From a virus (taxonomy: Duplodnaviria; Heunggongvirae; Uroviricota; Caudoviricetes), in the IMG/VR virus record IMGVR_UViG_2724679293_000007, positions 32,001 through 96,000 of that record: DNA of 64,000 nucleotides. The stretch is one strand, 5' to 3'. Below are positions 1 to 931 of this stretch, one piece after another. The position numbers and the translations under genes are program-made. The notes beneath the pieces were generated by a model. The model was not told where the DNA came from, made no database searches, and saw only the letters and a list, made by a program, of their open reading frames with translations. How positions within the stretch are numbered: the stretch's first letter is position 1; the number at the start of each line of letters is the position of its first letter.

Positions 1-1
1 T

Positions 2-355
2 TTCAAAAGTAAAATTTTACGCTATAAAGTGGCACTTCCTGCCGCGGTAGAAGAGTTACGTAAAGCCATTTTTGAGCTGGTTAAGAACAAAGTTATTCAG
101 CACGAAAACGTCCAACTATTAGAGTTCAAAGGTCAGAAACTGATTGTGGAACTATTCAATGTACTGGCAAATGACCCAATACGTTTTCTCCCGACAGAAA
201 CCCGAAAGAAATATAATCAAGAGGAAGCAAAAGGTGATGATAAAAAAATGCGCGTCATTTGCGACTATGTTTCAGGCATGACAGATGATTACGCTACTAG
301 ACTGTATGAGAAAATATTTGTACCGAGAAAAGGCTCTATTTTTGATAGACTCTGA
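2..355 (+). CDS. HD-domain dNTP triphosphohydrolase (dGTPase-like), C-terminal fragment; gene starts upstream of the window
   Basis: Reading frame is open to the window edge. C-terminal motif VICDYVSGMTDDYATRLYEKI resembles Dgt-family C-termini. Visibly AT-rich. Confidence 0.45.
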   Translation, partial: FKSKILRYKVALPAAVEELRKAIFELVKNKVIQHENVQLLEFKGQKLIVELFNVLANDPIRFLPTETRKKYNQEEAKGDDKKMRVICDYVSGMTDDYATRLYEKIFVPRKGSIFDRL

Positions 356-521
356 TCTTTTTCTATTATATAGTACGTAGCCGGGTTCCAGAACCGCATA
401 AAATTAGATCTGGATATAATTCATTTAATTATCTGTTATATGCCAAACATAACGGTATATAATAGTGGATTAGATGTTACAACTTGACGCAGAATAAATA
501 GCTTTTATTGGCGCATGATGC

Positions 522-546
522 AAACCCCGCAATGAAGCGGGGTTTT
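522..546. terminator. Hairpin between convergent genes (possible bidirectional terminator)
   Basis: aaaccccgc-aatgaa-gcggggttt perfect 9-bp stem followed by T residues, between the + gene ending at 355 and the - gene ending at 563. Confidence 0.45.
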
Positions 547-562
547 AACTGTGGTAAATGAG

Positions 563-931
563 TTATAATCTTTTAATCAGGCTCTCAATATTAGTTGGTT
601 CAAAGTAATGCTTATTAACCTCTCCATTTATGAGGAAACCGTCTTTTAGTAGTCGGTCTAGCTCACGCTCTGCTTCTTTGTTGAACATACCTGGATATAT
701 TCTCTTGTACAACTGAAATGTACCATTCATATTCCTGTAAGCATTCTCAGCAATTTCAATGGAGATTTCATTTCCGGCGTTAAATACAGGAATGAATATC
801 TCAAGAATATCATTCTTTAACTTCTGTTTAAGTTTCTTTTTTTCAACAATATTAGAATAAAAGATACCTAAAAAAAATGTGCAGATACCAGGAAGCCAAT
901 TATTAACGAAAACCTCAGACAAAGCGTCCAC
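563..931 (-). CDS. Hypothetical protein (122 aa), AT-rich accessory gene
   Basis: Six-frame ORF; low GC like the adjacent dGTPase-like gene; no recognisable family. Confidence 0.4.
   Translation of the reverse strand: MDALSEVFVNNWLPGICTFFLGIFYSNIVEKKKLKQKLKNDILEIFIPVFNAGNEISIEIAENAYRNMNGTFQLYKRIYPGMFNKEAERELDRLLKDGFLINGEVNKHYFEPTNIESLIKRL

What the first reader, a model, noticed from the sequence alone, without database searches (positions are those of the whole stretch)
1..931. 3' end of an HD-domain dGTPase-like gene plus an AT-rich orphan gene at the window edge
The first 355 bp encode the C-terminus of a Dgt-like dNTP triphosphohydrolase in a frame open to the window boundary. A convergent 122-aa AT-rich gene and a shared hairpin follow. 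dNTP-depleting enzymes are an established antiphage defence class, and I do not recall such a gene in canonical P1. This is probably the edge of another accessory or defence island, largely outside the window.
Basis: partly seen in the sequence, partly recalled or inferred. Interest (0 to 1): 0.45.

Follow-up and report, generated by a model that had tools for sequence, protein, structure and literature searches.

The report
Anti-phage dGTPase cargo in P1-like plasmid
The window starts inside a known anti-phage dGTP-degrading enzyme gene that some P1-like phage-plasmids carry as swappable cargo; this is already annotated and reported, and the small unknown gene beside it is an unrelated passenger that often sits next to defence genes in other bacteria.

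Summary
Window 2-355 (+) encodes the last 117 residues (HD_assoc domain) of a 451-aa dGTPase, open to the window edge. A 122-aa AT-rich ORF (563-931, -) converges on it across a perfect 9-bp hairpin (522-545).

Near-identical plasmids (99.3-99.9%) supply the missing 5' part. The full protein passes the curated NCBIfam anti-phage dGTPase model (573 bits, cutoff 400) and the PADLOC dGTPase model. It keeps all catalytic residues. It is 60% identical to the validated, crystallised Shewanella SpdGTPase and about 80% to the validated E. coli G177 type.

The two genes form a 2.39-kb cassette that exactly fills the ssb-hxr interval. That interval is a variable cargo slot in the P1 family (P1: isaA-IS1-isaB; P7: nmpC). 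It is not a large island, because P1 core genes follow upstream. RefSeq already names the gene, and a 2025 preprint lists dGTPase among the defence systems of E. coli P1-like phage-plasmids, so it is already known.

ORF122 is a real, selected gene (dN/dS 0.02-0.10) with no family, fold or literature match. It is not a dGTPase partner (0 of 14 loci elsewhere). It does recur at the edges of exchangeable defence cargo, which is a modest new lead.

The parts
1..355 (+). 3' end of the anti-phage dGTPase gene: residues 335-451 of 451 (HD_assoc domain), frame 2, stop TGA 353-355. The 5' 1001 bp, which carry the HD catalytic domain, lie outside the window.
   Evidence: open frame; NF041026, HD_assoc, PADLOC dGTPase; full 451-aa gene in 99.3-99.9% identical plasmids; 60% identity to SpdGTPase, PDB 9P8W.
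356..521 (.). AT-rich (35% GC) intergenic spacer downstream of the dGTPase. It is found only inside this cassette.
   Evidence: GC; 53 plasmid records, all with this same cassette. No Rfam family reaches threshold.
522..545 (.). Perfect 9-bp G+C-rich inverted repeat with a 6-nt loop between the convergent genes. It is a candidate bidirectional transcription terminator, 167 nt after the dGTPase stop and 17 nt after the ORF122 stop.
   Evidence: I4; -21 / -18 kcal/mol, z about -3.3. Not called by the consensus terminator scan because the T-run is short.
563..931 (-). ORF122: a 122-aa conserved protein of unknown function (phrog_26730). It has an N-terminal hydrophobic helix followed by a KKKLKQKLK stretch and an invariant core (KLKNDILEIFIPVFN.G). 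It is an independent module, not a dGTPase partner.
   Evidence: dN/dS 0.02-0.10; KD19 maximum 1.39; all-helical model, pLDDT 75; 14 representatives in 1.84 billion proteins; no fold match; 0 of 14 loci with a dGTPase.
932..991 (-). 60-bp upstream leader of ORF122 that travels with it (80% identical to the Salmonella copy). It contains the GGAG Shine-Dalgarno at 942-939.
   Evidence: (the DNA match to Salmonella L004 covers window 564-991 only).
992..1138 (.). Right-hand end of the cassette. Homology to P1, P7, SJ46 and RCS47 resumes at 1139/1140, at the stop codon of hxr. A weak promoter-like site lies on the - strand at 1032-1003.
   Evidence: breakpoints; promoter-like site, 9 of 12, no more sites than expected by chance.
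1138..1446 (-). hxr, the first P1-backbone gene to the right of the cassette, followed by ddrB, ddrA and darA. Listed only as the boundary marker.

Best explanation
The window comes from a P1-like phage-plasmid (Punavirus). It begins inside a single-gene anti-phage defence system, a 451-aa HD-domain dGTP triphosphohydrolase of the Tal et al. 'dGTPase' family.

The gene sits in a 2.39-kb cassette (dGTPase, hairpin, ORF122) that replaces P1's isaA-IS1-isaB between ssb and hxr. This slot holds different cargo in different P1 relatives.

Inferred mechanism, taken from validated relatives:
- In the lysogen the enzyme is made from its own promoter. A terminator separates it from the C1-repressed ssb gene, and the cassette contains no C1 operator.
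- When a lytic phage infects, the enzyme hydrolyses dGTP to deoxyguanosine plus triphosphate. This starves the invader's DNA replication and protects both the host and the resident prophage.
- It works alone, with no partner gene.

ORF122 is a separate passenger gene: a small helical protein, probably membrane-anchored, of unknown function. It was co-acquired with the dGTPase but is not functionally tied to it.

Shown here: identity, family membership, intact catalytic residues in proxies, cassette boundaries, slot variability, and the independence of the two genes. Inferred: expression in the lysogen, the terminator role of the hairpin, and actual protection by this allele.
For: Replicon and slot:
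- hxr, ddrB, ddrA and darA follow at 96-99% identity to P1, P7 and SJ46.
- Homology breaks 2 bp before the ssb stop and resumes at the hxr stop.
- The slot holds isaA-IS1-isaB in P1, nmpC in P7, a hypothetical gene plus isaA in SJ46, IS26 cargo in RCS47, and DUF2829 plus an isaA-like gene in Ro157c2YLVW.

Family membership:
- NF041026 573 bits against a cutoff of 400; housekeeping Dgt models fall far below their cutoffs.
- PADLOC dGTPase 1.5e-148; Pfam HD plus HD_assoc.
- 59.9% identity over 436 of 451 residues to SpdGTPase (PDB 9P8W), with H64, H104-D105 (Sp D101) and H113/E116 conserved.
- 80.2% identity to the chromosomal E. coli type, whose gene start matches the validated G177 Ec-dGTPase at 96 of 97 nt.
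- Tal et al. show dGTP depletion, loss of defence with the D101A mutant, single-gene sufficiency, and that homologs at >=45% identity are the defence-associated set.
- SpdGTPase alone hydrolyses dGTP in vitro and forms a hexamer.

Regulation: the only C1 operator lies upstream of ssb (L001 6227-6243), and a terminator-like hairpin follows ssb at L001 6792-6819.

Prevalence and prior knowledge: the cassette occurs in 64 of 5,426 complete E. coli genomes, always on plasmids. PGAP names the gene 'anti-phage deoxyguanosine triphosphatase'. A preprint lists dGTPase as a common defence system of E. coli P1-like phage-plasmids.

Independence of ORF122.
Against: - The catalytic two-thirds of the gene is not in the window. 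Its integrity here is inferred from records that are 99.3-99.9% identical over window 1-1500.
- No promoter-like site was found upstream of the dGTPase by the consensus scan, so expression in the lysogen is unproven.
- This allele has never been tested. The nearest validated enzymes are about 80% and 60% identical.
- How P1's own lytic replication escapes dGTP depletion is unknown.
- The hairpin fails the T-tract criterion of the terminator scan.
Confidence: 0.88

Rival explanations
1. The dGTPase and ORF122 form a two-gene defence system. In this reading ORF122 is a membrane sensor, regulator or effector of the dGTPase, analogous to CloA-CloB (Clover).
For: The two genes always occur together in the P1 cassette: 64 genomes have the dGTPase module and 64 have ORF122. 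They share one hairpin. Regulated dNTPase systems with a partner gene do exist (Clover).
Against: - 0 of 14 ORF122 loci outside P1-like elements have a dGTPase within 5-8 kb.
- The chromosomal and G177-type dGTPase has no ORF122.
- DNA homology to the Salmonella copy covers ORF122 plus 60 bp only.
- The genes are convergent, so they are not an operon.
- Validated relatives defend as single genes.
- ORF122 has no NTase or any other domain.
- The co-occurrence in P1 is explained by a single acquisition, since all copies are >=99% identical.
Confidence: 0.05
2. The enzyme serves the phage-plasmid's own physiology rather than defence. It would tune the dNTP pool or replication fidelity, as proposed for housekeeping E. 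coli Dgt.
For: Bacterial dGTPases include housekeeping enzymes. The gene lies just downstream of the replication gene ssb. Tal et al. note that distant homologs may be housekeeping.
Against: - It scores 141.6 bits on the housekeeping Dgt model NF003429 (cutoff 405) but 573 bits on the anti-phage model.
- It is 60% and 80% identical to validated defensive enzymes, above Tal's 45% line.
- It is present in only about 10% of P1-like plasmids, in a cargo slot, so it is not a core function.
- It is separated from ssb by a terminator.
Confidence: 0.05
3. In this particular replicon the gene is an inactive remnant or pseudogene, so the fragment has no function.
For: The 5' two-thirds of the gene is unseen. 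One phage record (vB_EcoM-673R5) annotates the gene as two pieces. Some carriers are degraded P1-like plasmids with IS1 beside ORF122.
Against: - The split in vB_EcoM-673R5 is two 1-nt losses in G6 and C6 homopolymers, in a record where many genes are split. That points to a sequencing artefact.
- The gene is intact in the RefSeq plasmids examined, including the degraded pTET-GZEC065.
- The window part has an intact frame and differs from the best proxy at 1 of 1500 bases, and that base is outside the gene.
Confidence: 0.04

Closest known systems
Anti-phage dGTPase (Tal et al. 2022): Sp-dGTPase of Shewanella putrefaciens CN-32 (PDB 9P8W) and Ec-dGTPase of E. coli G177. NCBIfam NF041026; PADLOC/DefenseFinder 'dGTPase'.
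   Same: Full-length collinear homolog: 60% identity to Sp over 97% of its length, and about 80% to the Ec type. Same HD plus HD_assoc architecture, same catalytic H...HD...HE residues, single-gene organisation, and carriage on a mobile element.
   Different: This allele is untested. It is carried in the ssb-hxr cargo slot of a P1-like phage-plasmid rather than inside a type I R-M operon or a chromosomal island. Its promoter region is unrelated to that of the chromosomal copy: homology starts about 40 bp before the ATG.
Clover (CloA dGTPase + CloB nucleotidyltransferase)
   Same: An HD-fold dGTPase effector that restricts phages by nucleotide depletion.
   Different: There is no NTase partner gene. 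CloA chains match only the N-terminal about 150 residues (E about 1e-24, against 1e-158 for SpdGTPase). SpdGTPase-type enzymes are hexameric and constitutively active in vitro, whereas CloA is octameric and needs dTTP.
Housekeeping E. coli Dgt (PDB 4X9E; NF003429) and human SAMHD1
   Same: The same HD-domain dNTP triphosphohydrolase chemistry.
   Different: Only distant similarity: 141.6 bits against a cutoff of 405 on NF003429, and E 6e-24 over the N-terminal about 110 residues to 4X9E. Dgt is chromosomal and a core gene, not cargo.
Prophage and satellite defence hotspots (P2/P4 hotspots, Rousset et al. 2022) and 'moron' loci
   Same: Conserved backbone flanks (ssb and hxr) with sharp breakpoints and unrelated cargo in different relatives, including a defence gene.
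   Different: The cargo at this P1 slot is not predominantly defence: it includes a porin, IS elements and isaA/isaB of unknown function. I did not find this slot formally described as a hotspot in the papers I read.

Membership tests
Anti-phage dGTPase (NCBIfam NF041026 / PADLOC dGTPase / Tal et al. 2022) | Full-length match to the curated family model above its cutoff | tested here: met
   On the 99.9%-identical proxy L001:7000-8352, NF041026 gives 573.3 bits against a cutoff of 400, covering model positions 1-425 of 425. PADLOC dGTPase gives 1.5e-148. The window fragment alone matches model positions 321-425 at 120.8 bits, as expected for a quarter of the protein.
Anti-phage dGTPase (NCBIfam NF041026 / PADLOC dGTPase / Tal et al. 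2022) | HD domain with metal-binding H...HD...D and the H/E catalytic dyad intact | tested here: met
   H64, H104-D105 (equivalent to Sp D101, whose D101A mutation abolishes defence) and H113/E116 are present in the proxy. This cannot be tested in the window itself, because these residues lie upstream of base 1.
Anti-phage dGTPase (NCBIfam NF041026 / PADLOC dGTPase / Tal et al. 2022) | >=45% identity to Sp-dGTPase over >=90% overlap (Tal et al.'s defence-associated set) | tested here: met
   59.9% identity over 436 of 451 residues (97%). The window-encoded part alone is 59% identical.
Anti-phage dGTPase (NCBIfam NF041026 / PADLOC dGTPase / Tal et al. 2022) | Works as a single gene, located on mobile elements or in defence contexts | tested here: met
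   It has no conserved partner. It sits in a variable cargo slot of a phage-plasmid, next to the Dar/Ddr anti-restriction operon.
Anti-phage dGTPase (NCBIfam NF041026 / PADLOC dGTPase / Tal et al. 2022) | Depletes dGTP on infection and protects against phage | not testable with these tools
   This needs plaque assays and LC-MS. It has been shown only for relatives at about 80% and 60% identity.
Clover (CloA-CloB) | Adjacent Pol-beta-type nucleotidyltransferase partner (CloB) | tested here: not met
   The neighbours are ssb and ORF122. ORF122 has no Pfam, NCBIfam or PADLOC domain.
Housekeeping Dgt (NF003429 / PRK04926) | Score above the equivalog cutoff | tested here: not met
   141.6 bits against a cutoff of 405.
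phrog_26730 (ORF122) | Full-length match to the PHROG profile | tested here: met
   E 2.3e-77, residues 2-122 on profile positions 2-122 of 122. The family is annotated 'unknown function'.
Any described defence family (ORF122) | Match to a PADLOC, Pfam or NCBIfam model, or to a known fold | tested here: not met
   No hits in the three libraries. Best Foldseek E is 1.4 against PDB and 0.25 against BFVD. No distant relatives in 1.84 billion representatives.

The most novel reading that the evidence does not exclude
ORF122 (phrog_26730) is an undescribed small defence-island gene. It would be a portable module of about 430 bp (the gene plus about 60 bp of leader) encoding a protein that is probably membrane-anchored. 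It recurs exactly at the edge of exchangeable defence cargo in unrelated mobile elements.

Neighbours seen:
- dGTPase in P1-like plasmids
- PD-T7-1 in Proteus
- PDC-S08 in Marinomonas
- a SIR2 gene (PDC-S25) in Dryocola
- HEPN_AbiV plus bSEFIR in Yersinia kristensenii
- Mrr in Vibrio
- DUF4365-TPR in Lonsdalea
- Phd/ParE in a metagenome contig

It could itself be a single-gene defence, exclusion or anti-defence function. Alternatively it could be a conserved recombination anchor that helps cargo swap between elements.
Probability: 0.3. Interest if true: 0.5.

Novelty: already known. Interest (0 to 1): 0.2.

Why it matters
The dGTPase shows a temperate phage-plasmid arming its host against competing phages through nucleotide depletion. 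The enzyme family, its mechanism, its RefSeq name and its presence in P1-like elements are all already documented, so nothing new follows from the finding as stated.

Two modest points go beyond that:
- The exact mapping of the ssb-hxr interval as a clean cargo slot could guide engineering of P1 vectors or surveys of phage-plasmid cargo.
- The recurrent position of the tiny ORF122 family at the borders of swappable defence genes gives a cheap, testable candidate for a new defence-related gene or hotspot marker.

Tried and rejected
- **ORF122 as a dGTPase partner.** Rejected. tblastn found no dGTPase in 14 ORF122 loci from other genera, and the chromosomal dGTPase lacks ORF122.
- **Function of ORF122 by homology.** Pfam, NCBIfam and PADLOC gave nothing. 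PHROGs gave only an unknown-function family. A profile search of 1.84 billion representatives found only the family itself. An AlphaFold2 model (pLDDT 75) searched against PDB and BFVD gave no significant match. The afdb50 library was unavailable.
- **Hairpin as a textbook intrinsic terminator.** Not called by the consensus scan, so it stays a candidate only.
- **Known RNA in the intergenic regions.** Only sub-threshold chance hits (isrJ E 0.54, NBR2 E 0.78).
- **C1 operator in the cassette.** None found. The only good match is the known ssb operator.
- **Sigma-70 promoter for the dGTPase.** None found by the scan.
- **A larger defence island upstream.** Rejected, because P1 core genes follow directly.
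- **dGTPase pseudogene in phage vB_EcoM-673R5.** Explained as homopolymer errors.
- **Literature on the two protein accessions and the PHROG.** No papers found.

Full report
**What is in the sequence.** Window 2-355 (+) is an open frame that runs into the window edge and stops at TGA 353-355. A 122-codon ORF lies on the opposite strand at 563-931. It has a GTG start with a GGAG Shine-Dalgarno 7 nt upstream. Between the two convergent genes sits a perfect 9-bp G+C-rich inverted repeat, AAACCCCGC-N6-GCGGGGTTT, at 522-545. It folds at -21 kcal/mol on the + strand and -18 on the - strand, with z about -3.3 against shuffles. The stretch is AT-rich: ORF122 is 33% GC, the dGTPase fragment 38%, the spacers 35-37%, and the whole window 47%. 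From base 1138 onward the window is ordinary P1 backbone: hxr, ddrB, ddrA, darA. The one caveat is that the hairpin fails the T-tract rule of the consensus terminator scan, so its terminator role is only inferred.

**What the truncated gene is.** The 117 window-encoded residues match Pfam HD_assoc (7.8e-22). They also match the last ~105 positions of NCBIfam NF041026 'anti-phage deoxyguanosine triphosphatase' and of the PADLOC dGTPase model. Megablast finds the whole of window 1-1500 at 99.3-99.9% identity in one Punavirus genome and in 41 plasmid records, nearly all E. coli plasmids of about 95-100 kb. In the best proxy (pUTME-12-1, 1 mismatch in 1500 bases) the gene is 451 codons.
- The full protein scores 573 bits on NF041026 (cutoff 400) and 1.5e-148 on PADLOC dGTPase. 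It is far below cutoff on all housekeeping Dgt equivalogs.
- It has Pfam HD plus HD_assoc.
- Its closest solved structure is 9P8W (E 1e-158). This is the Shewanella putrefaciens CN-32 SpdGTPase, shown by Tal et al. to protect against phage and crystallised as a hexamer in the Clover preprint.
- Identity to SpdGTPase is 59.9% over 436 of 451 residues, with H64, H104-D105 (Sp D101) and the H113/E116 dyad conserved.
- Tal et al. found that homologs with >=45% identity over >=90% overlap are the defence-associated set, that D101A abolishes defence, and that the enzyme removes dGTP and raises deoxyguanosine during T7 infection.
- A second validated enzyme, Ec-dGTPase of E. coli G177, matches at 96 of 97 available bases a chromosomal E. 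coli gene. That gene's product is 80.2% identical to the P1-borne protein.

Membership in the anti-phage dGTPase family is therefore met on every sequence criterion. The catalytic residues were checked in proxies, because they lie outside the window. Enzymatic and protective activity of this allele cannot be tested here.

**Where it sits.** Homology to P1, P7, SJ46 and Ro157c2YLVW ends 2 bp before the ssb stop codon (window coordinate -1251). It resumes at the hxr stop codon (window 1139/1140). The insert is 2389 bp, of which 1138 bp is in the window. The same interval holds different cargo in each relative:

| Phage | Content of the ssb-hxr slot |
|---|---|
| P1 | isaA-IS1-isaB |
| P7 | the porin gene nmpC |
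| SJ46 | a hypothetical gene plus isaA |
| RCS47 | IS26-flanked cargo |
| Ro157c2YLVW | DUF2829 plus an isaA-like gene |

So this is a variable cargo slot with sharp borders, and the dGTPase cassette is one of its alleles. Upstream of the cassette are P1 core genes (ssb, lyz, lydD, pro, prt), so there is no larger island beyond the window edge. The cassette occurs in 64 of 5,426 complete E. coli genomes, always on plasmids. It occurs in 53 PLSDB plasmids, including one from Cronobacter sakazakii, out of about 495 with the neighbouring P1 backbone.

**How it probably works (inferred).**
- The only C1 operator in the region is the known one in front of ssb (L001 6227-6243).
- A terminator-like hairpin with a T-run follows ssb inside the cassette's left end (L001 6792-6819).
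- The cassette has no operator.

The dGTPase is thus probably transcribed independently of the lytic programme and is available in the lysogen, as expected for a lysogenic-conversion defence gene. I could not identify its promoter. By analogy with Sp- and Ec-dGTPase, it would hydrolyse dGTP to deoxyguanosine and triphosphate and starve an infecting phage's replication. T7 escapes such defence through mutations in gp5.7 and gp0.7, which act on host RNA polymerase. How P1's own lytic replication avoids the enzyme is unknown.

**Prior knowledge.** PGAP already names this gene 'anti-phage deoxyguanosine triphosphatase' in dozens of RefSeq plasmids. A 2025 preprint on phage-plasmids in clinical Enterobacteriaceae states that E. 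coli P1-like elements commonly carry dGTPase systems. Exchange of defence systems by phage-plasmids is well documented. The finding as posed is therefore correct but already known.

**The 122-aa gene.** It is a real gene under purifying selection: dN/dS is 0.08-0.10 against the Salmonella-type copies and 0.02 between the Rheinheimera and Vibrio copies. It belongs to a very small family. A word-indexed search gave 34 hits, and only 14 representatives at 50% identity were found among 1.84 billion proteins. All named members are gammaproteobacterial, and the core KLKNDILEIFIPVFN.G is invariant. It has a moderately hydrophobic N-terminal helix (KD19 maximum 1.39) followed by a lysine-rich stretch. 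This suggests a membrane anchor but is not conclusive. The AlphaFold2 model is all-helical (pLDDT 75) and matches no solved or viral structure. Pfam, NCBIfam and PADLOC give nothing, and PHROGs gives only phrog_26730, 'unknown function'. No paper mentions it.

**ORF122 is not a partner of the dGTPase.**
- None of 14 loci from other genera has a dGTPase within 5-8 kb.
- The chromosomal dGTPase has no ORF122.
- DNA similarity to the Salmonella copy covers only window 564-991.
- Orientation relative to the neighbouring gene varies between loci.

**Side observation on ORF122.** Its immediate neighbour is often a known or candidate single-gene defence system:

| Locus | Organism | Neighbour | Evidence |
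|---|---|---|---|
| L026 | Proteus hauseri | PD-T7-1 | 1e-168, |
| L010 | Marinomonas | PDC-S08 (5'-nucleotidase family) | 1e-117, |
| L028 | Dryocola | SIR2-like PDC-S25 | 4e-77, |
| L032 | Yersinia kristensenii | bSEFIR plus HEPN_AbiV | 4.5e-125, |
| L022 | Vibrio | Mrr_cat | |
| L027 | Lonsdalea | DUF4365-TPR | |
| L033 | metagenome contig | SACS-helicase giant | |
| L034 | metagenome contig | Phd/ParE | |

Pairwise DNA comparisons show conserved flanks with swapped cargo directly abutting ORF122. The Yersinia enterocolitica and Y. kristensenii loci share flanks at 83-90% identity, and the right flank starts 59 bp upstream of ORF122. The Proteus and Lonsdalea loci share ORF122 and its surroundings at 91% and then diverge.

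Counter-examples exist. One MAG has TetR and DUF4142 neighbours. The Salmonella, Enterobacter, Rheinheimera and Y. enterocolitica neighbours have no defence hit. About 9 of 18 contexts are positive. Because all of these loci are on mobile elements, where defence genes are dense, I regard this as suggestive guilt by association and not as an enrichment test.

**Verdict.** This is the 3' end of a known anti-phage dGTPase carried as cargo by a P1-like phage-plasmid. It is ordinary and already annotated, and I score it low. The only lead of any novelty is the ORF122 family's recurrent position at the edge of exchangeable defence cargo.

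Noticed in passing
window 563-991 (-); L011 vs L032; L026 vs L027; L010, L022, L028, L033, L034: The ORF122 family (phrog_26730) recurs directly beside different known or candidate defence genes: PD-T7-1, PDC-S08, SIR2/PDC-S25, bSEFIR plus AbiV, Mrr, DUF4365-TPR and Phd/ParE. In two pairs of related loci the flanks including ORF122 are conserved while the adjacent cargo is swapped.
   Followed up: partly
window -1250 to 1138 (L001 6750-9138); L003, L014-L017: The ssb-hxr interval is a sharp-bordered variable cargo slot across the P1 family. It holds isaA-IS1-isaB in P1, nmpC in P7, isaA-type genes in SJ46, IS26 cargo in RCS47, DUF2829 in Ro157c2YLVW, and the dGTPase cassette here.
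   Followed up: yes
L002 7259-7330 (phage vB_EcoM-673R5, ON470615.2): The dGTPase is annotated there as two CDSs because of 1-nt losses in a G6 run and a C6 run. ddrB and darA are also split in that record. This looks like homopolymer sequencing error rather than real pseudogenes.
   Followed up: yes
L018 2339-8406 (E. coli EC09 chromosome): The chromosomal G177-type dGTPase sits in an IS-flanked island near yjcB/pdeC/soxSR. Beside it is a cluster annotated as a small hypothetical gene, PfkB kinase, 7-cyano-7-deazaguanine synthase-like, nitroreductase, 8-oxoguanine glycosylase and DNA adenine methylase. This may be a DNA-modification or defence module.
   Followed up: no
L019 6408-7105 (pTET-GZEC065) and P1 L003 4382-5149: An IS1 is inserted right at the start codon of ORF122 in a group of degraded P1-like plasmids (71-89 kb, one 372 kb), with loss of hxr-ddrB. 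Canonical P1 also has an IS1 in this same slot, so the slot is a repeated IS1 target.
   Followed up: partly
window 963-931 (-): A 10-codon mini-ORF (MRINLNSGVR) lies upstream of ORF122, and its TAG stop overlaps the GTG start (TAGTG). This could be chance or translational coupling.
   Followed up: no
L001 6902-6926 (window -1098 to -1074, outside the window): A perfect 7-bp inverted repeat, TGTGGAT-N11-ATCCACA, lies about 75 bp upstream of the dGTPase start codon. It is a candidate operator. No sigma-70-like promoter was found by the scan in this region.
   Followed up: no
H110, NZ_CP080596.1 (Cronobacter sakazakii plasmid, 94 kb): The same cassette's intergenic DNA (99.5% identical) occurs in a Cronobacter plasmid of P1-like size, so the cassette-bearing element is not confined to Escherichia.
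   Followed up: no
window 521-595 (-) and 826-884 (+): Two sub-threshold Rfam hits: isrJ (20.6 bits against a gathering score of 37, E 0.54) and NBR2 (E 0.78). The first overlaps the hairpin. Both are most likely chance.
   Followed up: yes
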